In this document: positions 1-44,342 of the stretch, piece after piece
Layout: every line of letters starts with the position of its first letter
Numbering within the stretch: position 1 is the first letter of the stretch
DNA from: a virus
Taxonomy: Duplodnaviria > Heunggongvirae > Uroviricota > Caudoviricetes
Strand: one strand, 5' to 3'
DNA length: 44,342 nucleotides
IMG/VR virus record: IMGVR_UViG_2547132254_000004
Span: 1 to 44,342 of that record
Notes under the pieces: model-generated
Told to the model about the DNA's origin: nothing
Database searches by the model: none
What the model saw: the letters and a program-made list of their open reading frames with translations, nothing else
Translations under genes and position numbers: made by a program

Positions 1-1209
1 ATGTCGGTTTTTCATAACTGGCTGCTTGATATCGCAAGCGGGAATTACTTTATCTACATCAAACGCCTTTCTGCAAACGACACAGGCGCAACAGGTGGCC
101 ATCAGGTCGGACTTTATATCCCCTCAAATATCGTTGAAAAGCTTTTTCCATCTATCAATCATACTCGCGAACTGAACCCTTCAGTCTTCCTTACTGCGCA
201 TGTATCATCCCATGATTGCCCTGATACCCAAGCACGCGCAATTTATTACAACAACCGTTATTTTGGTAAGACCCGAAACGAAAAAAGAATTACGCGCTGG
301 GGGAGAGGAAGTCCATTACAGAACCCTGAAAATACAGGAGCCCTCACAATTCTTGCTTTCAGGTTAAACGAACAGAACACTGACTGTTCCGAGGTAGATA
401 TATGGGTCTGCGTCAATCCCGATGAAGAGGATATCATCGAGTCTGCTATTGGCGAAATCATACCTGGAACCCTAATTTCCGGCCCTGCCGGACAAATTTT
501 GGGCGGATTGTCTCTTCAGCAAACTCCAGTAAATCATAAATATGTTATTCCTGAAGACTGGAAGAAGCGTTTTCCTTCTGGAAACGAAATTATTCAATAT
601 GCTGCTGGCCATTATGCTAAAAACTCCAAGGATCCAGATGAGCAACTGATTGACCGTCGGCGTGTCGAGTATGATATTTTTCTACTCGTCGAGGAATTAC
701 ATGTTCTTGATATTATTAAGAAAGGGTTCGATTCTGTAGATGAGTTTATTGCATTAGCCAACTCTGTCAGTAATCGACGTAAATCAAGGGCAGGTAAATC
801 ACTTGAACTTCACCTAGAGAAGCTTTTTATCGAGCACGGACTACGGCATTTCTCCACTCAGGCAGTTACTGAAGGTAATAAAAAACCAGATTTCCTGTTT
901 CCTTCAGCAGAGGCATATCATAACGCTGAATTTCCTGTAGAAAACTTACGTATGCTGGCAGTAAAGACCACCTGCAAAGATCGCTGGCGTCAGATACTGA
1001 ATGAAGCAGATAAAATCCATCAGGTACATTTATTTACGCTGCAAGAAGGTGTTTCTTCAGCACAATACCGAGAAATGAAAGATGCGGGTGTCAGACTCGT
1101 TGTACCATCAACTTTACATAAAAAATACCCAGAAGCAGTTAGAGAAGAATTAATAACGCTCGGAGCATTCATTACTGAGCTGATAGAACTTTACACTGAA
1201 CTATCATAG
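1..1209 (+). CDS. ecoRIIR: Type II restriction endonuclease, EcoRII family (CCWGG-type)
   Basis: 402-aa ORF starting at ATG pos 1; N-terminus MSVFHNWLL...YIKRLSANDTGATGGHQVGLYIP and overall length match my recollection of R.EcoRII; convergent with a Dcm-type methyltransferase. Identity from memory, not a search. Confidence 0.85.
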   Translation: MSVFHNWLLDIASGNYFIYIKRLSANDTGATGGHQVGLYIPSNIVEKLFPSINHTRELNPSVFLTAHVSSHDCPDTQARAIYYNNRYFGKTRNEKRITRWGRGSPLQNPENTGALTILAFRLNEQNTDCSEVDIWVCVNPDEEDIIESAIGEIIPGTLISGPAGQILGGLSLQQTPVNHKYVIPEDWKKRFPSGNEIIQYAAGHYAKNSKDPDEQLIDRRRVEYDIFLLVEELHVLDIIKKGFDSVDEFIALANSVSNRRKSRAGKSLELHLEKLFIEHGLRHFSTQAVTEGNKKPDFLFPSAEAYHNAEFPVENLRMLAVKTTCKDRWRQILNEADKIHQVHLFTLQEGVSSAQYREMKDAGVRLVVPSTLHKKYPEAVREELITLGAFITELIELYTELS

Positions 1210-1214
1210 GCTGA

Positions 1215-1237
1215 CTCCCGGCTTAAAAGGCCGGGAG
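1215..1237. terminator. Inverted repeat between the convergent R and M stop codons (possible bidirectional terminator)
   Basis: CTCCCGGC-N7-GCCGGGAG stem in the 34-bp gap between stops at 1209 and 1244; no clear U-tract. Confidence 0.4.
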
Positions 1238-1243
1238 GTGTTC

Positions 1244-2677
1244 TCAAGGCTGCCCAGTCTTACCAGCATCAGCAGAAACAGCTTTGAGGATATAGGGTTC
1301 CAGAAGTCTGGCAACGGCTTCAAATACTGGCACCACAACGGAGTTACCGAACTGCCGATATGACTGAGTATCTGAAACCGGAATACGGAATGGTTTCCCT
1401 CCAGGTTTTTCAAACCCCATAAGGCGTGCGCACTCTCGGGGAGTCAGCCTGCGTGGTCGACGAGCCTGGTTACTCTCATTCATAAAGTCAGCCTCTCCCG
1501 TTGCCATATCCCAACCACGATCAATAAGAATTTCTGATCCGTCTTTGTGATATCTGGCAGAAAGTGTGCGTGCAATGCTTTCCTTATTCTCAGGATTGAC
1601 CAACCCAAAGCCAAAACCATTCCCCTTGGCTGCATGCTTTTTGGCGTAGTTATAAAGGTACTCCCATAGTTTTGGCGTAAGTATATATTTACTGTCGACT
1701 ACAGGCTCCAGCAATTCACCAAATGATGGGCGGTGTTCCGGATAAAAACGACTGATATCACGCAAGGTAAACCCCTTGTGAATATTCAGATCTCGTCTAA
1801 ATCCGACCAGAACAATGCGTTCACGATGCTGAGGCAAAAAATGCTTCCCATCGATAATCTTTGGATCGTTTTTTCCCATTTCTGCAGCATCGGCAACTTC
1901 GTAGCCCAGCTCGTCAAGGGTCTCCATAATGACTTTGAAAGTTTTACCCTTATCATGGCTCTTCAGATTTTTGACATTTTCCAGCACAAAAATTGCCGGT
2001 TTTTTTGCTCGTATAATACGTGCCACGTCAAAAAAAAGTGTTCCTTGTGCTTCACATTCAAAACCATGCGCACGACCAAGTGAGTTTTTCTTACTAACAC
2101 CAGCAAGGCTAAATGGCTGGCACGGGAACCCCGCAAGAAGCACATCATGATCCGGCACATGCTCATCAATATATGCATAAGCATCCGTTTCCAATACATC
2201 GGTTTTATCACTCAGCGTGACTTCCCGAATATCGAGATTGAATTTATGCACCTGTTCATCGTTAAACCAGTTGGCCTTGTATGTACGCACAGCATCTTTA
2301 TTCCATTCACTGGTAAAAACACACTGGCCTCCAATGGCCTCAAAACCTTTCCGTATCCCTCCAATTCCAGCAAATAAGTCAATGAAGCGGAAAGCATATT
2401 CCGGATGGTTTGCAGGTGGTTCTGGTAGCATCTTACGCAGAAGAGACTCTTCTACTGAAGTCAACGATTTTGGTAAACACTTGCCATTAATCCAGCGGTT
2501 AATGGTTTCACGGCTCCACTCATTTTTTCCGACTTTTCTCAGTAATTCAGCCACATACTTCTGATCATAGATTTCCAGCACTTTCTCGATAAGCTTTTTA
2601 TCATTTTCCTGTCGCAGCTTTTCTTCCGCCTCGGCTTCCTTCAGCAGATGCTGTGCCAACACTTCAAATTCAGACAT
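1244..2677 (-). CDS. ecoRIIM: DNA-cytosine C5-methyltransferase, M.EcoRII/Dcm family
   Basis: C5-MTase motifs [26 protein letters not shown]. Start placed at ATG 2677 (MSEFE..., 477 aa) preceded by GGAGG; track ORF extends 14 codons further to 2719. Confidence 0.9.
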
Positions 2678-2984
2678 AATTCCTCCAAGGGGTCTAATGG
2701 GTGAAACTTTATCACTCATTCAACCCAGAAGGAAATGTTTTATCTGGATATTTAAACAGTGACTACAACGTAATCTAGCACTGGTGATGCTTTGTTAGGC
2801 ATAGAGAATCATTCTATATACGACTAATGACAGAAAAACAGCAGACAAGTAGTTTGTTCATAAATTAACGCATACTACGTGCCTACGGTTTTCGAGACCG
2901 GTCCAATCATCAAACGAAACATAAAATTAGCTCACATTATGAGGAAAAGTATCTTTTTTGTACTCTGTAAATTCAAAGGCTTAG

Positions 2985-3971
<987 letters not shown>

Positions 3972-4404: not shown

Positions 4405-5470
4405 GTGACGAATGTTTTTGGGAAGAGAATATATACCCTGGATGTTCTGAGAGGATTTGCCGCACTTTCCGTTGTGTTATGGCATTGGCAACATTTTTTT
4501 ATGAAAAAGAATGCTGCATCTGACATAATCATAAACCGCCAACCTTTTTATGAATTTTTTCCGTCTTTTATCATTACGGTTTATATGCTGTCGAATTGTT
4601 TTTTATGATTTCTGGATTCATATTTTTTTATCTATACGCTGACAATATACACAGCAATAAAACCTCAGCAAAAACTTTTATAGTTAACCGTGTCAGTAGA
4701 TTATATCCACTTTATATATTTACATTTGCTGTCGTGGCAATATTACAAATTATTTTCTTTAAAAGTCATAATTATTTTTTGTTTATCCTATGAATGACAT
4801 TTACCATGCCATTCTGAATTTATTGATGATTCAATCATGGGGATTTGAGCGAGGTTGGTCCTTCAACGCCCCGACATGGTCCGTGTCGATTGAAGTACTT
4901 ATGTACATGATATTTTTTATATTATGCAAGTTCACATCAAAAACAACATTCATATCAATTTTAATAGTTGCATTATCGTACTACTTTTTCAAAATTAACA
5001 ATCCCATAATGATCGGCGCATTCTCTTTCTTTATTGGTGGTCTGACTTATAAAATTACGATTGCGGCCATAAAAAATATTAGCGCAAAGTTATTTTTTAT
5101 TTTTGCTTGTGTTTTTCTATTGATCTCATGGGGAGTTATATTTACCCTGCAAGTAGCAGATATATTCTCAATTATCTTATTCGGATTTACCTCCATAATC
5201 TTTTTCCTTGTATCAATTAGCGCAATACGAAACGATTTTGGGAAAAAAATTGAATGGTTGGGCGATATCAGTTATTCATCTTATCTTTTACATTTTCCTT
5301 TGCAAATCATTGTTGTTTATTTAGCTGACAAGATTGGCTATGGACGCGATCTTTTTTACAGCCCCAAGGTATTCATTTTATTCATGCTTACATTAATGGC
5401 AATTAGCTATATGTCATATATATTCATTGAAAAACCATCGCAACAATTCATCCGAGATAAATTTCATTAA
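4405..5470 (+). pseudogene. Acyltransferase family 3 (O-antigen/LPS acetylase-like) gene split over three frames
   Basis: Track ORFs 4405-4608, 4596-4793, 4790-5470 lie in three frames and concatenate to ~358 aa with N-terminal LDVLRGFAALSVVLWH and a WSVSIEV motif; highly hydrophobic; both junctions at T6 runs; GTG start at 4405 preceded by AAGAGG; AT-rich. Confidence 0.6.
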
Positions 5471-33835: not shown

Positions 33836-34383
33836 GCGTTAGTTTCTCCACAGTCACGACACGCCACGGCGCCCGGAGCTGCACACTCGCGGGCGTCATT
33901 ACTTTCTGAAATGCAAAAAATTTTGTAGACCAGTGCTGCATGCTCCTGCAGCTTCGAAATTGAGAGGTACAGCTCGTCGTTAATTGCTGTCTTCTCATGC
34001 GGTTCCACTACACCGTCTTCAATTGCTGAACGAATCTGTTTTGAATAACTGCCGATCTGTTCAATGACCTCCAGCAGGCGTTGGTTGATATCGGCGTTGT
34101 CCACATCCTCGACATCAGGAAGAGACACAAAGACGCCATTTGCAGACTGCGCCACAGCGTCAGCAATGAAGTGAGTTCCACCAGCACGTTGCAAAATCAT
34201 TGCCCATCCCAGCGGGAAAATCTGATCGCCATCGGCACGAAGGCGGTTAAATAATGCGTTCTCTGTTACATCCAGCCAGTCAGCAGCTTCAGCGTACCCC
34301 CCCGGCAACGCTGCGATAGTTTTTCTGACAGCTTTCACGTACCACTCAGGCTGTTTTTCTACTTTCCAGTGATGCTTACCCAC
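33832..34383 (-). CDS. CII-like regulatory protein (CP76-type)
   Basis: 183 aa directly downstream of cro in the rightward operon; family assignment from recollection. Confidence 0.5.
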
Positions 34384-34636
34384 GGTTCACCTCCTGTTCC
34401 TGTGGTTTAAACCCATTCTGGTTTTGGCTAGATTGAAAACGTGCCGGATAAAGAATCTGCATTTCGCTGACTTCACCCTTAAAAAAATTGGCTAAACGTT
34501 CTGCAAGCTCGATAGATGGAATCTGCTCCAGCCTCTCAATACGACTCAACGTCGCTGGATTGACTTGAACACCCGCAGCAACATGCTGCAAAGTGAAACC
34601 ATGCGCCTTACGCACATTTCGTAATGGTGATTGCAT
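34376..34636 (-). CDS. Cro-like HTH (XRE family) repressor
   Basis: 86 aa with HTH HGFTLQHVAAGVQVNPATLSRIE; divergent from cI across an operator-containing spacer. Confidence 0.7.
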   Translation of the reverse strand: MQSPLRNVRKAHGFTLQHVAAGVQVNPATLSRIERLEQIPSIELAERLANFFKGEVSEMQILYPARFQSSQNQNGFKPQEQEVNRG

Positions 34637-34733
34637 ATGCCCTCCAAATATTGCGCGTTATGCATGTTATTTCACGCAATTATTTTGCGCAAGTTGATTT
34701 GCTTATCACGCAATAAAGAAATGTAATAAACGC
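34637..34733. promoter_or_regulatory. Right operator/promoter region with TTGC-N7-GCAA palindromes
   Basis: Palindromic 15-mers TTGCGCGTTATGCAT (34651-34665) and TTGCTTATCACGCAA (34699-34713), plus TTGCGCAA (34685-34692), between divergent cro and cI. Confidence 0.5.
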
Positions 34734-35426
34734 ATGAACATAGGAAACCGAGTCAGACAACTTCGCCAAGCGAAGAACATGAAAATCGCCGATCTCGCTG
34801 AAGCGATAGGAGTAGATGCGGCGAACATCTCGCGCTTAGAAACGGGTAAGCAAAAACAATTTACCGAACAAACACTGAGTAATATTGCCAAGAGCTTAGG
34901 TGTTGATATTGCTGATCTCTTTACCTCTGCCCACAAAAGTAATACTGTATATAAAAACAGTAATAATGAGGATGTTGCGCAGGTGAAGGATGTGTTCCGT
35001 ATTGAAATGCTGGATATCAGTGCCAGTGCGGGAAATGGCCTTATCCAGGGCGGTGATGTCATTGATGTGATTCATGCCATCGAATACAGAACTGATAATG
35101 CTGTATCAATGTTCGGCGGACGACCAGCCAATCACATCAAAGTTATCAACGTTCGTGGGGACAGTATGTGTCCAACCATTGAGCCAGGAGATCTCATCTT
35201 CGTTGATGTCAGCATCAATCAGTTTGATGGTGATGGTATATATGTCTTTGGTTTTGATGACAAAATATACGTTAAAAGACTTCAAATGATTCCTGACAAA
35301 CTGCTGGTGATTTCTGATAACCAGATTTACCGTGAATGGGGAATTACTAGCGAAAACGAACACCGATTCATGGTCTTTGGAAAGGTCTTAATCAGTCAGT
35401 CGCAAACCCTTAAGAGACATAATTAA
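34734..35426 (+). CDS. CI-type prophage repressor (XRE HTH plus S24/LexA-like peptidase domain)
   Basis: 230 aa; N-terminal HTH RVRQLRQAKNMKIADLAEAIGVDAANISRLETGK; C-terminal S24-like region (GDSMCPTIEPGDLIFVD ... VKRL). Confidence 0.85.
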   Translation: MNIGNRVRQLRQAKNMKIADLAEAIGVDAANISRLETGKQKQFTEQTLSNIAKSLGVDIADLFTSAHKSNTVYKNSNNEDVAQVKDVFRIEMLDISASAGNGLIQGGDVIDVIHAIEYRTDNAVSMFGGRPANHIKVINVRGDSMCPTIEPGDLIFVDVSINQFDGDGIYVFGFDDKIYVKRLQMIPDKLLVISDNQIYREWGITSENEHRFMVFGKVLISQSQTLKRHN

Positions 35427-35445: not shown

Positions 35446-35469
35446 GGCCACCGAAAGGTGGCTTTTTAT
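35446..35469 (+). terminator. Rho-independent terminator after cI
   Basis: GCCACC-GAAA-GGTGGC followed by TTTTTATT, 20 nt after the cI stop. Confidence 0.55.
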
Positions 35470-35480
35470 TACCTATAAAT

Positions 35481-35517
35481 TTGCATATCTCGCAAACATC
35501 ACTTGCATATCTCGCAA
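35481..35517. promoter_or_regulatory. Left-operator-like pair of identical palindromes TTGCATATCTCGCAA
   Basis: Two identical copies (35481-35495, 35503-35517), same TTGC-N7-GCAA architecture as the cro/cI sites, upstream of the early-left genes. Confidence 0.45.
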
Positions 35518-35702
35518 TTTAATTTTATCTTTTGTTCCAGACCAACTACAGGATTACAACAAAATCTGGTTGCAACACGGTGCATGTGTCGTAAGCAGTC
35601 AGTAAATGTCAAAAACGAACAGGCAGGACGCCCACGAAGTAGCCGCCGGTGGCGTATGAATGACCGGATGATTCGTTAAATACTATGTGTAAGAGAGCGC
35701 AA

Positions 35703-35906
35703 ATGAACCGTTATTTCACATGCTCGTTTTGTGGCGCAAACGAGCTGCAGGCAAAAAAAATCATCGCCAAAGGCGGAAAAGATGAAGTTGCTATCTGCTC
35801 TGAGTGCGTAGTCTTGTGTGTCGGGGCATTAATCAATAGCAGCACAACTATTCGGTTCACACCAAATGAGAATGCGCCTTTAGATGCGCGGAAATCTGGA
35901 GGTTAA
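35703..35906 (+). CDS. Small ClpX-type C4 zinc-finger-like protein
   Basis: 67 aa from ATG 35703 (MNRYFTCSFCGANELQAKKIIAKGGKDEVAICSECVVLCV...); CSFCG...ICSECV spacing resembles the ClpX N-terminal zinc-binding domain; AAGAGAG RBS. Confidence 0.45.
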   Translation: MNRYFTCSFCGANELQAKKIIAKGGKDEVAICSECVVLCVGALINSSTTIRFTPNENAPLDARKSGG

Positions 35907-35914
35907 AGAACAAA

Positions 35915-36190
35915 ATGAAAGTCCAGATTTTAAACAATAGTGGTGAAGTCGTTTGGTCATACGACATAGCCGCTCCTGTAGATCAGAGCGGCGATAGCTG
36001 GACCAATGGGAAACATCAGATTATGGCTGGAGTTGTATTCTCTTTACGCCGTGCTTTGGAACAGGCTGAAGTCTTTCCATCAGACCCTGAATGGAAATGG
36101 CCTTTTTCTATTTGTCCAAATTCGGAGAGTACATTTCAGAAAATTGGTCAGAAAGTCGCACTCGAAGAGCATCAGCCAACTGTTTCCTGA
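35915..36190 (+). CDS. Hypothetical early-left protein
   Basis: 91-aa ATG ORF; 3' end overlaps a convergent minus-strand ORF, so one of the two may be spurious. Confidence 0.3.
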   Translation: MKVQILNNSGEVVWSYDIAAPVDQSGDSWTNGKHQIMAGVVFSLRRALEQAEVFPSDPEWKWPFSICPNSESTFQKIGQKVALEEHQPTVS

Positions 36191-36353
36191 TTTTTTCAGG
36201 TAACTCGTCGGCATCGCAGAAACAACAACGCTCGATCATGTTGAAAGCCGATTCGTAGAACTGTTTCTGCTGAGTGTCGCTGAGACAGGAAAAGAGCGAC
36301 GTTACGATGATTTTATTAATTGCATTATCAAGTTCTTTTTCATCAAAAGTCAT
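36108..36353 (-). CDS. Hypothetical small acidic protein, antisense to the early-left operon
   Basis: 81 aa with ATG start and AAGGA RBS; helical/acidic composition. Confidence 0.35.
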   Translation of the reverse strand: MTFDEKELDNAINKIIVTSLFSCLSDTQQKQFYESAFNMIERCCFCDADELPEKIRKQLADALRVRLSDQFSEMYSPNLDK

Positions 36354-36790
36354 TTGATTTTCCTTTTATGTATACGGGCTTAAAAGGATACCACCGAGCC
36401 TGAAGTGGTGAAAAGACAGGCACATAACAGCTAAGTATTTTCAACCAGAGAGAATCCTTAGCGTTGTGGTGAATGCGGCTCAGCGCACGCGGGTTAAGGT
36501 TGAGGCTGACAGTCGACCTTCTGTGGATACCCACCCGCCTGGTGTGCAACCTTCGCCAGGCACCGGGAGGCACCCGGCACCACAACTTTATGCTGTGTGT
36601 AGTCCTGGCGGTACCAGTTTGTACCCTTGCTTCCGGCTGGTACCGCTCTTTTTACAAAACAGAGAAGAGCATCACCGGACGACGGGCTCATAACCCAATC
36701 CATCCGGGCGGCTGCCACCGCAGGTGTTCTTCTCTGTTTTGTGGAGAAACTAATCGGCCTTGCAGGGTCGATATGATGAGGAGCAGCAAA

Positions 36791-38043: not shown

Positions 38044-38334
38044 TTTCATTACTGCAAATGCCCCTGCGGGGGCATTTATGGAAACGTAATTGACTCAATA
38101 ATCGCCTGAAGGCGAGGGTTTTCTTTAACCAAAATTCAGCGCGGTGCAGCGCATATAACGTGGAGAACAAAATGTCATTTATTAAAACTTTTTCCGGGAA
38201 GCATTTTTATTATGACAGGATAAATAAAGACAACATCGATATTAACGATATCGCGGTTTCCCTTTCAAATATCTGTCGCTTTGCCGGCCATCTTTCACAC
38301 TTCTACAGCGTCGCCCAACATGCGGTGCTTTGCA

Positions 38335-39663
38335 CTGATGAATCCCCTAATGATTTTGGTAAAAATCATTAAGTTAAGGTGGATACACATCTTGTCATAT
38401 GATCAAATGGTTTCGCGAAAAATCAATAATCAGACAACAAGATGTGCGAACTCGATATTTTACACGACTCTCTTTACCAATTCTGCCCCGAATTACACTT
38501 AAAACGACTCAACAGCTTAACGTTGGCTTGCCACGCATTACTTGACTGTAAAACTCTCACTCTTACCGAACTTGGCCGTAACCTGCCAACCAAAGCGAGA
38601 ACAAAACATAACATCAAACGAATCGACCGATTGTTAGGTAATCGTCACCTCCACAAAGAGCGACTCGCTGTATACCGTTGGCATGCTAGCTTTATCTGTT
38701 CGGGCAATACGATGCCCATTGTACTTGTTGACTGGTCTGATATTCGTGAGCAAAAACGACTTATGGTATTGCGAGCTTCAGTCGCACTACACGGTCGTTC
38801 TGTTACTCTTTATGAGAAAGCGTTCCCGCTTTCAGAGCAATGTTCAAAGAAAGCTCATGACCAATTTCTAGCCGACCTTGCGAGCATTCTACCGAGTAAC
38901 ACCACACCGCTCATTGTCAGTGATGCTGGCTTTAAAGTGCCATGGTATAAATCCGTTGAGAAGCTGGGTTGGTACTGGTTAAGTCGAGTAAGAGGAAAAG
39001 TACAATATGCAGACCTAGGAGCGGAAAACTGGAAACCTATCAGCAACTTACATGATATGTCATCTAGTCACTCAAAGACTTTAGGCTATAAGAGGCTGAC
39101 TAAAAGCAATCCAATCTCATGCCAAATTCTATTGTATAAATCTCGCTCTAAAGGCCGAAAAAATCAGCGCTCGACACGGACTCATTGTCACCACCCGTCA
39201 CCTAAAATCTACTCAGCGTCGGCAAAGGAGCCATGGGTTCTAGCAACTAACTTACCTGTTGAAATTCGAACACCCAAACAACTTGTTAATATCTATTCGA
39301 AGCGAATGCAGATTGAAGAAACCTTCCGAGACTTGAAAAGTCCTGCCTACGGACTAGGCCTACGCCATAGCCGAACGAGCAGCTCAGAGCGTTTTGATAT
39401 CATGCTGCTAATCGCCCTGATGCTTCAACTAACATGTTGGCTTGCGGGCGTTCATGCTCAGAAACAAGGTTGGGACAAGCACTTCCAGGCTAACACAGTC
39501 AGAAATCGAAACGTACTCTCAACAGTTCGCTTAGGCATGGAAGTTTTGCGGCATTCTGGCTACACAATAACAAGGGAAGACTTACTCGTGGCTGCAACCC
39601 TACTAGCTCAAAATTTATTCACACATGGTTACGCTTTGGGGAAATTATGAGGGGATCTCTCAG
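38335..39663 (+). mobile_element. IS10 (IS4 family), 1329 bp, flanked by 9-bp target duplication TGCTTTGCA
   Basis: Ends CTGATGAATCCCCTAATGATTTTGG... and ...GGGGATCTCTCAG match IS10 termini; identical TGCTTTGCA at 38326-38334 and 39664-39672. Confidence 0.95.
38442..39650 (+). CDS. IS10 transposase
   Basis: 402 aa (MCELDILHDSLYQFCPELHLKRLNSLTLACHALLDCKTLTL...) matching the IS10/Tn10 transposase. Confidence 0.95.
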   Translation: MCELDILHDSLYQFCPELHLKRLNSLTLACHALLDCKTLTLTELGRNLPTKARTKHNIKRIDRLLGNRHLHKERLAVYRWHASFICSGNTMPIVLVDWSDIREQKRLMVLRASVALHGRSVTLYEKAFPLSEQCSKKAHDQFLADLASILPSNTTPLIVSDAGFKVPWYKSVEKLGWYWLSRVRGKVQYADLGAENWKPISNLHDMSSSHSKTLGYKRLTKSNPISCQILLYKSRSKGRKNQRSTRTHCHHPSPKIYSASAKEPWVLATNLPVEIRTPKQLVNIYSKRMQIEETFRDLKSPAYGLGLRHSRTSSSERFDIMLLIALMLQLTCWLAGVHAQKQGWDKHFQANTVRNRNVLSTVRLGMEVLRHSGYTITREDLLVAATLLAQNLFTHGYALGKL

Positions 39664-40036
39664 TGCTTTGCAGCCAGCTGGTACCGCAGGAATTTGCTTT
39701 TGAAGCGTTAATGCATGATGCAACAGAAGCGTATTGCCAGGACATCCCGGCTCCACTGAAACGCCTTCTTCCTGACTATAAACGGATGGAAGAAAAAATA
39801 GACGCCGTAATCCGTGAGAAATACGGGTTACCCCCGGTTATGAGTACACCCGTGAAATATGCCGATCTCATCATGCTGGCAACCGAACGCCGCGATCTCG
39901 GGCTTGATGATGGCTCTTTCTGGCCTGTGCTGGAAGGTATCCCGGCAACAGAGATGTTCAACGTGATTCCACTGGCTCCAGGCCATGCCTACGGGATGTT
40001 TATGGAACGCTTTAACGAATTATCGGAGTTACGCAA

Positions 40037-40399
40037 ATGCGCATAAATGTTTTCGAAATGGAAGGGTTTCTTCGCGGGAAATGTGTACCGCAAGATCTGA
40101 AAGTGAACGAAACAAATGCTGAGTACCTGGTACGTAAATTCGACGCGCTTGAAGCTAAATGTGCGGCACTGGAAAGCAAAATAATACCAGTGTCAGCTGA
40201 ACTGCCACCAGCAAATGAAAGTGTTCTGTTATTTGATGCTAACGGAGAAGGCTGGCTGATTGGCTGGCGTTCTCTCTGGTACACCTGGGGACAAAAAGAA
40301 ACCGGAGAATGGCAGTGGACATTTCAGGTCGGGGACCTTGAAAACGTCAATATCACTCACTGGGCAGTAATGCCGAAAGCACCAGAGACTAAGAAATGA
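40037..40399 (+). CDS. yfdS: YfdS-like prophage protein
   Basis: 120 aa with ATG start and GGAG RBS, immediately after the yfdR-like gene. Confidence 0.45.
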   Translation: MRINVFEMEGFLRGKCVPQDLKVNETNAEYLVRKFDALEAKCAALESKIIPVSAELPPANESVLLFDANGEGWLIGWRSLWYTWGQKETGEWQWTFQVGDLENVNITHWAVMPKAPETKK

Positions 40400-40658: not shown

Positions 40659-40877
40659 GTGGAGAAACATATGCTGAACCTCGATTGTGTTCCAATCTCA
40701 ACTTATTGCAAAGAAACTGGCGAAACTCCTGAAGCAATAAACAAACGTGTACAGCGCGGTGTTTGGCGTGAAGGTGTTCAGGTTTTAAAGGTTGAAGGCG
40801 TTAAGGAGAGGTGGATTGATCTTAGTGAGGTTGCAAAATGGGCCAGACAAAACTGCTCAAACTACCGCGCGGCGTAA
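40659..40877 (+). CDS. Excisionase-like protein
   Basis: 72 aa immediately upstream of and overlapping the integrase start. Confidence 0.5.
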   Translation: MEKHMLNLDCVPISTYCKETGETPEAINKRVQRGVWREGVQVLKVEGVKERWIDLSEVAKWARQNCSNYRAA

Positions 40878-42010
40878 CAATCAGGAAACACCGCCTGGGC
40901 GAAACGATCAATATAACTTTCACCTATAAAGGAGTTAAATGTCGTGAGCCTCTTTCCAATCTGGAAGTAATACCAAAGAACATAAAATACGCCGAGCGCA
41001 CACTCGGCGAAATTCATAATAAGATCGAAAGGGGAACATTCATTTATGCGGAATATTTTCCCCGTTCTGCTCGTTTGAAAATTTTTGGTAATGCTGCTGC
41101 AGGCAAAACGGTAAAAATGTACCTGGACGAATACCTTGAAATCTGCGAAACGAGAAAACTTTCACCCTCTACGATTGGTGGTTATAAAAAATGCCGTAGT
41201 GCGTTAGCCTCACTCCACATTTGCCCTGCAAGTGAATTAACACCAGCAATCCTGAAAGCGTGGATTCAAAGCCAGAAAACGACCTTAAAAACAATTCGCA
41301 ACCAGTTATCTTTCCTGCGGTCAGCACTTGATGAAGCCGTAACCGATGGGGTACTTCAAATTAACCCCGTATCGTTGGTAACTGCTTCGCGCTACCAAAG
41401 TGATAAGTCAGAAGCAGAAAGCAGCTACGTGGTTGATCCGCTATCACCAGCAGAAGTTGATGCATTACTAGCAGCAGCCGGAAACAAACAATGGGAAAAT
41501 CTGTTCCGGTTCGCTATACATACAGGCCTGCGTAGTTCTGAATTATGTGCCCTTCGATGGCGTGATATCGACTTTGTTGGAAAAACTGCCCATGTCCAGA
41601 GCGCAAGTGTTGTCGGTGTTATCAAAGGGACAAAGACAAAAGCAGGTACTCGGAAAGTTGAACTGACAGAAGAGGCAATGTTGGCGCTGATAAATCAGAA
41701 GCCATTTACATTCATGAAGGATGCTACTGTCTTTGAAGATCCAAAGACCAATAAGCCTTGGGCAAGTGCTGATGCAATTAGGAAAAAAGCATGGGTGCCA
41801 ACATTGCGAAAAGCAGGTATTCGTTACAGAAACCCATATCAAACCAGGCATACATTCGCCACCAGCCATATCAGCCGAGGAGCAAACCTGTTTTGGCTTG
41901 CAGCTCAAATGGGGCATAAAGGGCCGGAGATGCTTTTCAGGCACTATGGTTCGTATCTTAAAGAGTATGATAACTTTACATCGATAAATCATTTGCATAA
42001 TCATAATTAA
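40838..42010 (+). CDS. Tyrosine integrase (lambda Int family) of the lambdoid prophage
   Basis: 390 aa with ATG start; C-terminal catalytic region with RHTFATSHISRGANLFWLAAQMGHK...LFRHY; reads toward the ssrA-derived attachment core. Confidence 0.85.
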   Translation: MGQTKLLKLPRGVTIRKHRLGETINITFTYKGVKCREPLSNLEVIPKNIKYAERTLGEIHNKIERGTFIYAEYFPRSARLKIFGNAAAGKTVKMYLDEYLEICETRKLSPSTIGGYKKCRSALASLHICPASELTPAILKAWIQSQKTTLKTIRNQLSFLRSALDEAVTDGVLQINPVSLVTASRYQSDKSEAESSYVVDPLSPAEVDALLAAAGNKQWENLFRFAIHTGLRSSELCALRWRDIDFVGKTAHVQSASVVGVIKGTKTKAGTRKVELTEEAMLALINQKPFTFMKDATVFEDPKTNKPWASADAIRKKAWVPTLRKAGIRYRNPYQTRHTFATSHISRGANLFWLAAQMGHKGPEMLFRHYGSYLKEYDNFTSINHLHNHN

Positions 42011-43100: not shown

Positions 43101-44342
43101 ATGGCAAGACAAACCAAACCTCTATCCGTTAAAGAAATAGAATCAGCCAAACCCAAGGAGGCGGACTACGTTCTCTATGATGGCGATGGCCTTGAGCTAC
43201 TCATTAAATCCAGCGGGAGTAAAATCTGGCAGTTTCGCTACATTCGCCCTGTCACCAAGAAACGAGCAAAGAAGAGCATAGGCTCCTACCCGTCAGTTAC
43301 CCTTGCCGATGCCAGAAACTACCGTGCAGAGTCCCGCTCACTACTGGCTAAACAGATCGATCCGCAGGAACATCAGCAAGAACAATTGCGCAGTTCGCTG
43401 GAAGCCAAAACCAACACTTTCCAACTCGTAGCTGAACGTTGGTGGAATGTGAAGAAAGCCAGTGTGACAGAGGACTATGCGGAAGATATCTGGCGCTCTC
43501 TTGAAAGAGACGTCTTTCCTGCGATTGGCGACGTTAGCGTTACAGATATTAAAGCTCATACACTGGTTCAGGCCGTACAACCGGTTCAGGCCAGAGGAGC
43601 ACTGGAAACTGTTCGTCGCCTGTGCCAACGTATTAATGAGGTCATGATCTATGCCCAGAACACAGGGCTGATTGATGCTGTTCCCAGCGTTAATATCGGT
43701 AAAGCCTTCGAGAAGCCTCAGAAAAAGAACATGCCCAGCATTCGACCGGATCAGCTACCTCAGTTAATGCAGACGATGCGAACAGCCAGCATTAGCCTTT
43801 CCACACGCTGCCTGTTCATGTGGCAACTTCTTACTATTACCCGCCCTGCCGAAGCGGCTGAAGCTCTCTGGGAAGAGGTAGACATAGAAGCGCGAGAGTG
43901 GAAGATTCCTGCAGCACGCATGAAAATGAACCGCGACCATACTGTTCCATTGTCAGATGAAGCAATTGCGATACTAGAGATGATGAAGCCGTTAAGTGGA
44001 AATCGAGAATTTATCTTTCCCAGCCGCATCAAGCCAAACCAGCCGATGAACAGTCAGACCGTAAACGCATCGCTAAAACGCGCAGGTTTTGGTGGGGTGC
44101 TCGTTTCACACGGCCTGCGATCTATCGCCAGTACAGCCCTTAATGAGCAGGGATTTCCACCTGATGTTATTGAGGCTGCACTTGCTCATGTGGATAAGAA
44201 TGAGGTTCGTCGTGCGTATAACCGTAGTGATTATCTTGAGCAGCGACGGCCTATGATGCAGTGGTGGGCTGATTTTGTGATGGCTGCAGATCACGGTAGT
44301 ATGATTGAAGGAGGGATAAAGGCAATGCGGTTAGTTGGATGA
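43101..44342 (+). CDS. intA: P4-family tyrosine integrase, CP4-57 IntA-like
   Basis: 413 aa (MARQTKPL...LYDGDGLELLIKSSGSKIWQFRY...), same length and position relative to ssrA as E. coli K-12 IntA; catalytic HGLRSIASTALNEQG...AHVDKNEVRRAYNRSDY. Confidence 0.85.
   Translation: MARQTKPLSVKEIESAKPKEADYVLYDGDGLELLIKSSGSKIWQFRYIRPVTKKRAKKSIGSYPSVTLADARNYRAESRSLLAKQIDPQEHQQEQLRSSLEAKTNTFQLVAERWWNVKKASVTEDYAEDIWRSLERDVFPAIGDVSVTDIKAHTLVQAVQPVQARGALETVRRLCQRINEVMIYAQNTGLIDAVPSVNIGKAFEKPQKKNMPSIRPDQLPQLMQTMRTASISLSTRCLFMWQLLTITRPAEAAEALWEEVDIEAREWKIPAARMKMNRDHTVPLSDEAIAILEMMKPLSGNREFIFPSRIKPNQPMNSQTVNASLKRAGFGGVLVSHGLRSIASTALNEQGFPPDVIEAALAHVDKNEVRRAYNRSDYLEQRRPMMQWWADFVMAADHGSMIEGGIKAMRLVG

What the first reader, a model, noticed from the sequence alone, without database searches (positions are those of the whole stretch)
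35703..35906. ClpX-zinc-finger-like small protein as first gene of the early-left operon
The 67-aa protein carries a C-x2-C...C-x2-C arrangement (CSFCG...ICSECV) spaced like the ClpX N-terminal zinc-binding domain, and occupies the position where lambda encodes N. A free ClpX N-domain mimic could compete for ClpX adaptors or substrates and so modulate ClpXP-dependent proteolysis during early infection or induction.
Basis: partly seen in the sequence, partly recalled or inferred. Interest (0 to 1): 0.55.

Follow-up and report, generated by a model that had tools for sequence, protein, structure and literature searches.

The report
Free-standing ClpX zinc-finger protein in prophage
A 67-residue prophage protein is a genuine stand-alone copy of the zinc-binding docking domain of the host unfoldase ClpX, and it may act as a decoy that alters which proteins ClpXP destroys after induction, though public annotation already names the domain and the function is untested.

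Summary
ORF 35703-35906 (+) encodes a 67-aa protein that scores above Pfam's threshold for zf-C4_ClpX (41.4 bits, E 1.3e-10). Its closest solved relatives by sequence and by predicted fold are the E. coli ClpX zinc-binding domain (ZBD). All four Cys are kept in homologues, and the gene is under strong purifying selection.

It is the first ORF after cI, its terminator, two operators and a candidate PL promoter in an SfII/SfV-like lambdoid prophage. NCBI's PGAP pipeline already names it "ClpX C4-type zinc finger protein" (about 98 of 5426 complete E. coli genomes). PHROGs lists it as unknown function, and I found no experimental paper.

It is not an N analogue. SfV and SfII lack it, and the slot is hypervariable, with more than 40 unrelated small ORF families.

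The decoy idea is plausible: free ClpX ZBD added in trans inhibits RssB-dependent sigma-S degradation. Only part of the adaptor-binding patch is conserved, so the mechanism remains inferred (about 0.4).

More novel is what lies just upstream. A ~65-nt structured leader RNA (35614-35677) has very strong covariation, is absent from Rfam, occurs once per phage, and starts early-left transcripts of many temperate phages and some T5-like phages.

The parts
34734..35426 (+). cI-like repressor (HTH + S24 peptidase). It defines the + strand as the 'leftward' direction.
   Evidence: Pfam Peptidase_S24 6e-19 and HTH_3/HTH_26. It is 100% identical to SfII cI.
35446..35472 (+). Intrinsic terminator after cI. 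It separates the lysogenic cI transcript from the early-left unit.
   Evidence: Terminator scan: GGCCACCGAAAGGTGGCT followed by TTTTATTACC. It is annotated as a terminator in SfII.
35481..35517 (.). OL: two exact copies of TTGCATATCTCGCAA (35481-95 and 35503-17).
   Evidence: Pattern search. Related TTGC-N7-GCAA sites lie in the cI-cro gap at 34651-34713.
35503..35531 (+). Candidate PL promoter (-35 TTGCAT, 17-nt spacer, -10 TATCTT), overlapping the second operator.
   Evidence: Read by eye. The consensus scan did not call it, because the -35 hexamer matches only 3 of 6. This part is inferred.
35614..35677 (+). Conserved structured leader RNA. Helices: P1 35614-19/35672-77, P1a 35622-24/35630-32, P2 35646-50/35663-67. 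The junctions and the P2 loop are nearly invariant.
   Evidence: On 116 distinct sequences, 94.6% of cells are paired against 21-42% when partners are slid, and 10 of 14 pairs change on both sides. The top mutual-information pairs are the helix pairs. The covariance model scores 92.8 bits with a single copy in the window. There is no Rfam match.
35691..35697 (+). Shine-Dalgarno-like AAGAGAG, 5 nt upstream of the ATG at 35703.
   Evidence: Sequence. Salmonella homologues have AGGAG at the same place.
35703..35906 (+). 67-aa stand-alone ClpX-type C4 zinc-finger protein. The ZBD-like domain spans residues 4-49 and the C-terminal tail 51-67 is disordered.
35915..36190 (+). Next gene of the operon (SfV orf33 homologue, PHROG 3195, function unknown). 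It starts 8 nt after the zinc-finger gene's stop codon.
   Evidence: In SfV it follows the leader RNA directly.

Best explanation
The ORF is a real gene for a stand-alone homologue of the ClpX N-terminal zinc-binding domain. The domain is a treble-clef C4 zinc finger with a hydrophobic C-terminal helix, followed by a short disordered tail.

It is transcribed only when the cI-like repressor leaves OL/PL, as the first ORF behind a conserved leader RNA.

Most likely mechanism (inferred): like the isolated ClpX ZBD, it forms Zn-bound dimers, or mixed dimers with ClpX N-domains. These titrate proteins that must dock on the ClpX N-domain, such as the adaptors SspB and RssB or N-domain-dependent substrates like replication initiators, MuA-like proteins and FtsZ. 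This would selectively dampen that subset of ClpXP proteolysis early after induction or infection, while leaving pore-recognised (ssrA-type) degradation intact.

Shown here: the homology, the fold, Cys conservation, purifying selection and the position in the operon. Inferred: Zn binding, dimerisation, the binding partners and the direction of the effect.
For: - Sequence: Pfam zf-C4_ClpX 41.4 bits against a cut-off of 27. Only ClpX chains are hit in the PDB.
- Structure: the AlphaFold2 model has pLDDT 73-81 over residues 1-40, with strands 20-23 and 30-32 and helix 33-49. The top seven Foldseek hits are ClpX ZBD (TM 0.71-0.74 normalised to target, rmsd 1.7-2.0 A, 36-41% identity).
- Conservation: C7, F9, C10, I31, C32, C35, C39 and V40 are invariant across 15 diverse family members. 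Against the Salmonella homologues pN is 0.15-0.17 while pS is 0.89-0.95.
- Regulatory context: terminator, operators and leader precede the ORF.
- Precedent: free ClpX ZBD at 5-20 uM inhibits RssB-dependent sigma-S degradation by ClpXP and binds the RssB C-domain (PMC7226468).
- Background: the N-domain dimerises on its own and is needed for adaptors, FtsZ and MuA but not for the ssrA tag (PMC5415555). It is needed for lambda O (PMC7804408).
- Residues: F16 of the adaptor/substrate patch and the L27-I28-A29 and V33/I35 positions are kept as F9, I20-I21-A22 and V29/I31.
- Family: many relatives are proteins made of 2 or 4 tandem ClpX fingers, which fits a domain that works as a dimer.
- Slot: the gene sits in a hypervariable first-gene slot, the kind that typically holds host-interaction accessory genes.
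Against:
- Two positions of the ClpX hydrophobic patch differ: Y34 is an invariant Ala30, and I46 is Ala42/variable.
- There is a 3-residue insertion in the hairpin, so adaptor specificity may be lost or changed.
- Identity to the host ZBD is only about 37-48%. The nearest relatives are other stand-alone fingers rather than ClpX, so this is an old independent lineage that need not still talk to ClpX partners.
- Model confidence is moderate (mean pLDDT 64.8, shallow alignment).
- SfV and SfII do without the gene, so it is accessory.
- No literature on a phage ClpX-finger protein was found.
Confidence: 0.4

Rival explanations
1. Hijacking adaptor rather than decoy. The zinc-finger domain pairs with a ClpX N-domain (mixed dimer) or otherwise docks on ClpX, while the variable C-terminal tail or extension binds a host or phage protein. 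That protein is thereby delivered to ClpXP, or ClpX is recruited to it as a remodelling chaperone.
For: - The N-terminal finger is conserved while C-terminal parts differ greatly (67 to 123 aa, some with an extra ~70-aa region).
- Several tails share a short motif, h-x-h-x-F-x(2-5)-AP. Examples are window TIRFTPNENAP, and ITVKFGDAP, LSVKFDYAP and IDISFPDAP in homologues.
- The ClpX N-domain dimerises independently (PMC5415555).
Against: - The tail motif is absent from several homologues (P0018, P0023).
- The tail has pLDDT below 50.
- No partner is known.
- Mixed dimer formation is untested.
Confidence: 0.2
2. A small zinc-ribbon regulator unrelated to ClpX function. It would bind RNA polymerase, DNA or RNA and tune early transcription, for example by acting with the adjacent leader RNA. 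The ClpX-like fold would be only shared ancestry of a treble-clef finger.
For: - The gene always lies directly after the structured leader RNA.
- Weak sub-threshold Pfam matches to Elf1-type zinc ribbons (E 0.19) and a source name 'transcription elongation factor Elf1'.
- Small C4 zinc fingers are common phage transcription factors (own knowledge: Ogr/Delta of P2/P4).
Against: - The leader RNA occurs without the gene in about 94% of sampled loci and in far more E. coli genomes (1387 against 98).
- The Elf1 and RecO matches are far below their cut-offs, whereas the ClpX match is far above its cut-off.
- After the ClpX ZBD hits, Foldseek matches drop to probabilities of 0.3 or less.
Confidence: 0.15
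3. Chance ORF or decaying remnant with no function.
For: It is short, its public function is listed as unknown (PHROG 5259), and it is absent from SfV and SfII.
Against: - Synonymous sites are saturated while pN is only 0.15-0.17.
- The Cys ligands and F9 are invariant.
- The start codon and Shine-Dalgarno sequence are conserved.
- The gene is present intact in about 98 complete E. coli genomes and many IMG/VR contigs.
Confidence: 0.03

Closest known systems
[quoted passage not shown]
   Same: C4 zinc finger with CSFCG...IC(S/D)ECVxLC, two short hairpins plus a C-terminal helix. F16 and most core hydrophobic residues are conserved. It is the best hit by sequence and by fold.
   Different: The phage protein has no linker and no AAA+ module (67 aa; NCBIfam clpX scores 26.6 bits against a cut-off of 359). 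It carries a 3-residue insertion in the hairpin. Y34 is Ala, I46 is Ala/variable, and the helix is more hydrophobic. It is encoded by a phage.
Stand-alone and tandem ClpX-finger proteins of diverse bacteria (uncharacterised; PHROG 5259/20296 in phages)
   Same: They have the same domain alone or in 2-4 copies and are 60-300 aa long. The protein is a full-length match to PHROG 5259 (E 1e-30).
   Different: The enterobacterial phage subgroup has its own signature, MNxY[YF]TCSFCG...AKGGKDExAICSECV..CV..LIN, and a fixed position behind the leader RNA. None of these proteins has a tested function that I could find.
Phage-encoded inhibitors of host AAA+ proteases: lambda CIII (FtsH), T4 PinA and T7 Gp4.5 (Lon) (own knowledge)
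   Same: Each is a small early phage protein that would modulate a host ATP-dependent protease. CIII is likewise in the PL operon.
   Different: These are unrelated in sequence and fold and target other proteases. They act as a competing substrate or direct inhibitor, not as a copy of the protease's own docking domain. I found no characterised ClpX-directed phage example.
Anti-adaptors IraD/IraM/IraP and the N-domain-only paralogue ClpC2 of mycobacteria
   Same: Both control an AAA+ protease by occupying the adaptor/N-domain interface. IraD and the ClpX ZBD share a site on RssB (PMC7226468). ClpC2 is a partial ClpC1 homologue that protects against a ClpC1-binding antibiotic, which it also binds (PMC10030653 abstract).
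   Different: These are cellular rather than viral proteins with different folds and different targets.
Lambda N / HK022 Nun (first gene of PL)
   Same: They occupy the same position, the first ORF downstream of PL.
   Different: There is no arginine-rich motif, no N-family hit and no boxA/boxB in the leader. The slot is occupied by more than 40 unrelated ORF families in related phages.

Membership tests
Pfam PF06689 zf-C4_ClpX (ClpX C4-type zinc finger domain) | Profile score above the curated gathering threshold | tested here: met
   41.4 bits against 27, E 1.3e-10, residues 6-40 on profile positions 2-34 of 39.
Pfam PF06689 zf-C4_ClpX (ClpX C4-type zinc finger domain) | Four zinc-ligand cysteines as CxxC...CxxC, conserved in relatives | tested here: met
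   C7, C10, C32 and C35 are invariant in alignments A2 and A5, except in the frameshift-like P0009. The spacer is 21 residues, against 18 in E. coli ClpX.
Pfam PF06689 zf-C4_ClpX (ClpX C4-type zinc finger domain) | Treble-clef-like fold: short hairpins followed by a C-terminal helix | tested here: met
   The AlphaFold2 model has E20-23, E30-32 and H33-49 with pLDDT 73-81 over residues 1-40. Foldseek's top seven hits are ClpX ZBD at rmsd 1.7-2.0 A. Model confidence is moderate.
Pfam PF06689 zf-C4_ClpX (ClpX C4-type zinc finger domain) | Binds one Zn(II) and forms a stable dimer | not testable with these tools
   This needs metal analysis and SEC-MALS or a multimer prediction. Tandem 2x/4x relatives hint at pairing.
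ClpX unfoldase (NCBIfam TIGR00382 / NF003745) | AAA+ ATPase module with pore loops and an IGF loop | tested here: not met
   The protein is only 67 aa. The clpX models score 23.5-26.6 bits against cut-offs of 359-371 and match only the N-terminal ~45 positions.
Functional ClpX N-domain (adaptor/substrate docking site) | Hydrophobic patch around F16 and I46 that binds lambda O, TF, SspB and RssB | tested here: inconclusive
   F16 is kept as an invariant F9. I46 aligns with A42, a variable column, and Y34 aligns with an invariant A30. No binding test was possible.
Lambda N-type antiterminators | N-terminal arginine-rich motif and a nut site (boxA plus boxB hairpin) in the leader | tested here: not met
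   There is no N-family Pfam hit and no arginine-rich motif in the sequence. boxA-like matches in the window are at chance level (39 found, 38 expected) and none lies on the + strand in 35530-35700.
HK022 put-type antiterminator RNA (considered for the leader element) | Sequence relatedness to putL/putR, and paired copies downstream of both PL and PR | tested here: not met
   There is no similarity to the HK022 immunity region beyond 8-9-mers. The covariance model R1 finds nothing in HK022 and only one copy in the window. The functional analogy was not tested: the element is promoter-proximal on the PL transcript and terminator-like hairpins lie downstream.

The most novel reading that the evidence does not exclude
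The protein is a viral decoy, or hijacker, of ClpX's adaptor-docking domain. That would make it the first phage-encoded modulator that works by copying the N-domain of a host AAA+ unfoldase. It would reprogramme which proteins ClpXP degrades (sigma-S, replication initiators, FtsZ, SspB cargo) in the first minutes after derepression. It is delivered from a hypervariable 'first-gene' slot behind a previously undescribed structured leader RNA.
Probability: 0.3. Interest if true: 0.65.

Novelty: new variant of a known kind. Interest (0 to 1): 0.42.

Why it matters
ClpXP controls sigma-S, lambda O-type replication initiators, MuA, FtsZ, some antitoxins and restriction alleviation. CmdTAC-type defences also need ClpX (bioRxiv 10.1101/2024.02.24.581848), although through a C-terminal Ala-Ala degron that is probably independent of the ZBD.

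Phage inhibitors are known for FtsH and Lon, but I found none for ClpX. A natural, 67-residue, N-domain-only protein would be a simple genetic tool for separating adaptor- and N-domain-dependent ClpXP proteolysis from pore-dependent proteolysis. It would also add a new entry to the list of host-takeover strategies.

If it does nothing to ClpXP, it still marks a large, unstudied family of stand-alone ClpX fingers.

Independently, the leader RNA found next to it is a strong candidate for a new cis-acting RNA class controlling early-left operons in many enterobacterial phages.

Tried and rejected
- **N-like antiterminator:** rejected. There is no arginine-rich motif, no N Pfam hit and no boxA, and the gene is absent from SfV and SfII.
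- **Recent capture of host clpX 5' end:** rejected. Identity to the E. coli ZBD is only 37-48%, and the closest relatives are other stand-alone fingers.
- **Known defence component:** no PADLOC hit for this protein or its neighbours.
- **Leader element as HK022 put homologue or Rfam family:** no sequence similarity, no covariance-model hit in HK022, and no Rfam hit at E up to 5.
- **Second (PR-side) copy of the leader:** none, even with filters off.
- **Leader as a small conserved ORF:** the ATG at 35657 (column 53 is T or C) is lost in about half of the variants, and the stem changes alter codons.
- **Single-sequence folding of the whole leader:** uninformative (z = +1.41). Only comparative analysis revealed the structure.
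- **Genome-contig scan for the family:** returned only 6 distant loci in unrelated bacteria, which was of little use.
- **Primary ZBD papers** (Wojtyra 2003, Thibault 2006, the Baker and Sauer review): not held. Residue-level contacts of the SspB tail (Park 2007) were not found in the papers I could read, so they could not be checked.
- **P0016,** the top hit of the exhaustive search, is a 2505-aa repetitive artefact-like protein and was ignored.

Full report
**1. The locus**

The window holds an SfII/SfV-like lambdoid prophage of E. coli. The + strand around the finding is the leftward, PL direction.
- A cI-like repressor (34734-35426, HTH + S24 peptidase) faces a cro-like gene (34376-34636, minus strand). 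A CII-like gene and an O-like replication gene follow on the minus strand.
- These four genes match SfII cI, cro, cII and O in size. The cI gene is 100% identical to SfII cI, and the cI-proximal leader is 98-100% identical.
- After cI comes an intrinsic terminator (35446-35463 plus a T run).
- Two exact copies of TTGCATATCTCGCAA follow (35481-95 and 35503-17). Related TTGC-N7-GCAA sites lie in the cI-cro gap.
- A candidate promoter overlaps the second operator (-35 TTGCAT at 35503, -10 TATCTT at 35526). I read it by eye; the consensus scan did not call it.
- The ORF 35703-35906 is the first ORF downstream.

**2. The observation**

- An upstream in-frame ATG (35685) gives the 73-aa form that PGAP annotates.
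- All homologues begin MNxY[FY]TCSFCG. A Shine-Dalgarno-like AAGAGAG precedes the 35703 ATG, and the Salmonella relatives have AGGAG at the same place.

Similarity to the ClpX zinc finger is significant.
- Pfam zf-C4_ClpX scores 41.4 bits (cut-off 27), E 1.3e-10.
- The NCBIfam clpX models match only their N-terminal ~45 positions.
- phmmer against all PDB sequences returns only ClpX chains. The best are the isolated E. coli ZBD entries 2ds5 and 1ovx at E 2-3e-4.
- The Cys spacing is C-x2-C-x21-C-x2-C, against x18 in ClpX, because of a GGK insertion.

The predicted fold agrees.
- An AlphaFold2 model built on an 11-sequence alignment has pLDDT 73-81 over residues 1-40, two short strands, a helix at 33-49 and a disordered tail at 51-67.
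- Foldseek against the PDB returns ClpX ZBD for its top seven hits (probability 0.98-1.00, rmsd 1.7-2.0 A, 36-41% identity). After these, probabilities fall to 0.3 or less.

**3. Conservation**
- In close and distant homologues C7, C10, C32, C35, C39, F9, I31 and V40 are invariant. One sequence, P0009, deviates in a frameshift-like way.
- Against Salmonella versions, synonymous sites are saturated (pS 0.89-0.95) while pN is 0.15-0.17. This is a protein under purifying selection, not a chance ORF.
- An exhaustive HMMER search of 1.8 billion representatives finds 185 relatives at E up to 1e-3. Nearly all are short proteins with one to four ClpX fingers and no AAA+ module.
- The phage protein therefore belongs to an old, broad, uncharacterised family of stand-alone ClpX fingers. 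It is not a recent copy of the host gene.

**4. What is already known**
- PGAP already names this protein "ClpX C4-type zinc finger protein". The leader plus gene is present at 80% coverage or more in 98 of 5426 complete E. coli genomes.
- PHROGs has it as family 5259, function unknown. PADLOC has nothing.
- Full-text searches found no study of a phage-encoded ClpX finger or of any phage inhibitor of ClpX.

**5. Position is not function: this is not an N analogue**
- SfV and SfII lack the gene. In SfV the same leader is followed, after about 50 nt, by orf33, which in the window is the second gene at 35915-36190.
- In 60 IMG/VR loci recovered through the protein, the gene is always directly behind the same conserved leader element. 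The cI/operator/promoter region differs from the window's in most of them, and at least six promoter/operator types precede the leader element.
- In 105 loci recovered through the leader element alone, only 6 have a ClpX-finger protein as the first ORF. More than 40 unrelated small ORF families fill the slot, and all those tested have unknown function.
- The recombination junction lies exactly at the 3' end of the leader element.
- So the gene is an accessory cassette in a hypervariable first-gene slot. There is no arginine-rich motif, no N-family hit and no boxA.

**6. Mechanism**

*Established background.* The ClpX N-domain dimerises on its own. It is required for adaptors (SspB, RssB) and for substrates such as MuA, FtsZ and lambda O, but not for the ssrA tag (PMC5415555; PMC7804408). 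A hydrophobic region around F16 and I46 binds lambda O, trigger factor (TF), SspB and RssB. Isolated ZBD added in trans at 5-20 uM inhibits RssB-dependent sigma-S degradation and cross-links to the RssB C-domain (PMC7226468).

*What the phage protein shows.* It keeps F16 (F9), L27-I28-A29 (I20-I21-A22), V33 and I35. It has Ala at the Y34 position (invariant) and Ala/variable at I46. Its helix is more hydrophobic than that of ClpX.

*Preferred reading (inference, confidence about 0.4).* A Zn-bound dimer, or a mixed dimer with ClpX, competes for N-domain-dependent partners. This would selectively dampen that branch of ClpXP proteolysis immediately after derepression. It would be analogous in logic to lambda CIII acting on FtsH (own knowledge) or to ClpC2 acting for ClpC1.

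*Main rival (0.2).* An adaptor-like hijacker. The finger is constant while the C-terminal parts vary from 67 to 123 aa. Several tails share an h-x-h-x-F-x(2-5)-AP motif, which in the window is TIRFTPNENAP.

*Other rivals.* A transcription-related zinc ribbon (0.15) is disfavoured, because the leader RNA mostly occurs without the gene and the non-ClpX profile matches are far below threshold. A non-functional ORF is excluded.

**7. The leader RNA (outside the finding's coordinates, and more novel)**
- Window 35614-35677 is conserved at 82-98% identity in 53 GenBank phage records. These include SfII, SfIV, SfV, ST64B, mEp237, mEp460, Pectobacterium ZF40, Yersinia YeP1-3, Pantoea AH07, Aeromonas pAEv1818 and the T5-like Providencia phages.
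Up to 1387 of 5426 E. coli genomes match the leader-plus-gene query; most of those matches cover too little of it to include the gene, and I did not check which part of the query each covers.
- It lies in the gap after a repressor gene, or just after a promoter, in the same orientation as the downstream early genes. In most immunity types it starts about 10-20 nt after the predicted transcription start; in the window the distance is about +78.
- On 116 distinct sequences a three-helix structure is 94.6% paired, against 21-42% when partners are slid. Ten of 14 pairs change on both sides, and the covariation score is 0.562 against 0.133 or less.
- The highest mutual-information column pairs are exactly the helix pairs.
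- Junctions and the P2 loop are nearly invariant. Part of that invariance was imposed by my search pattern, but the same holds in the blastn-derived alignment.
- There is no Rfam match and no similarity to HK022 put. There is one copy per phage and none on the PR side.
- Terminator-like hairpins lie downstream in the same operon, before xis and int. One is the 3' hairpin of the STnc100-like RNA at about 36618-36655; the other is at 38102-38125.
- A put-like processive antiterminator is therefore an attractive hypothesis, but it is untested.
- Wobble pairs do not decide the strand, so an antisense RNA is not excluded.

**8. Verdict**
The domain call is right and was already public. The 'N position' is only positional. 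The decoy mechanism is plausible and has an in vitro precedent, but it is untested.
- Interest is moderate.
- Novelty: a free-standing, phage-borne variant of a known domain.
- The adjacent leader RNA deserves its own follow-up.

Noticed in passing
window 35614-35677 (+); covariance-model hit 35608-35685: A ~65-nt structured leader RNA lies between the candidate PL promoter and the zinc-finger gene. It has three helices with very strong covariation (94.6% paired, 10 of 14 pairs with double changes on 116 distinct sequences) and about 35 near-invariant unpaired nucleotides. It occurs once per phage, is not in Rfam, and is unrelated in sequence to HK022 put. It is found at the 5' end of early-left transcripts in many temperate enterobacterial phages, in an Aeromonas phage, and in T5-like Providencia phages. 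It is a candidate put-like antiterminator or another kind of cis-regulatory RNA, and it also marks a module-exchange junction.
   Followed up: yes
window 36433-36655 (+): A match to Rfam STnc100 (gammaproteobacterial sRNA) scores 46.5 bits, just under the gathering score of 47, at E 3e-8. It has a terminator-like 3' hairpin and lies inside the early-left operon. It is conserved at 87-100% in most of the related loci.
   Followed up: partly
window 36108-36353 (-) against 35915-36190 (+): An 81-aa minus-strand ORF is a full-length match to PHROG 3311 (E 3e-55). It converges on the orf33-like gene and overlaps its 3' end by 83 nt. PGAP does not annotate it in strain RM10466.
   Followed up: no
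window 38442-39650 (+), flanked by 38160-38372 and 39663-40046: An IS4-family DDE transposase (402 aa) appears to split an HD-hydrolase/YfbR-like gene, which is intact in the otherwise identical prophage of strain RM10466. From memory the transposase looks IS10-like. The IS ends were not mapped.
   Followed up: partly
window 1-2719, 3030-3971, 4790-5470: The window starts with an EcoRII-type restriction enzyme (1-1209) and a convergent C5 cytosine methylase (1244-2719, minus strand). A GIY-YIG protein and an acyltransferase-3 family protein follow. I did not check whether these are prophage cargo or flanking genes.
   Followed up: no
window 40838-42010 and 43101-44342 (+): Two tyrosine integrase genes lie at the right end of the window, suggesting tandem or adjacent integrated elements.
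   Followed up: no
C-terminal tails of the zinc-finger protein's homologues (window residues 49-59; P0008, P0010, P0013, P0022, P0020): A recurring short motif, h-x-h-x-F/M-x(2-5)-AP, appears in otherwise unrelated, disordered C-terminal tails. Some relatives (121-123 aa, for example L180 and P0021) carry an extra C-terminal region. This may be a partner-binding linear motif.
   Followed up: partly
proteins P0017-P0160: A large uncharacterised family of stand-alone proteins with 1-4 tandem ClpX-type zinc fingers occurs in diverse bacteria (one search places a few single-finger relatives in Chloroflexota, Myxococcota, Mycobacteriales and Desulfovibrionales genomes). One member, P0034 (465 aa), has two fingers fused to a large C-terminal domain.
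   Followed up: no
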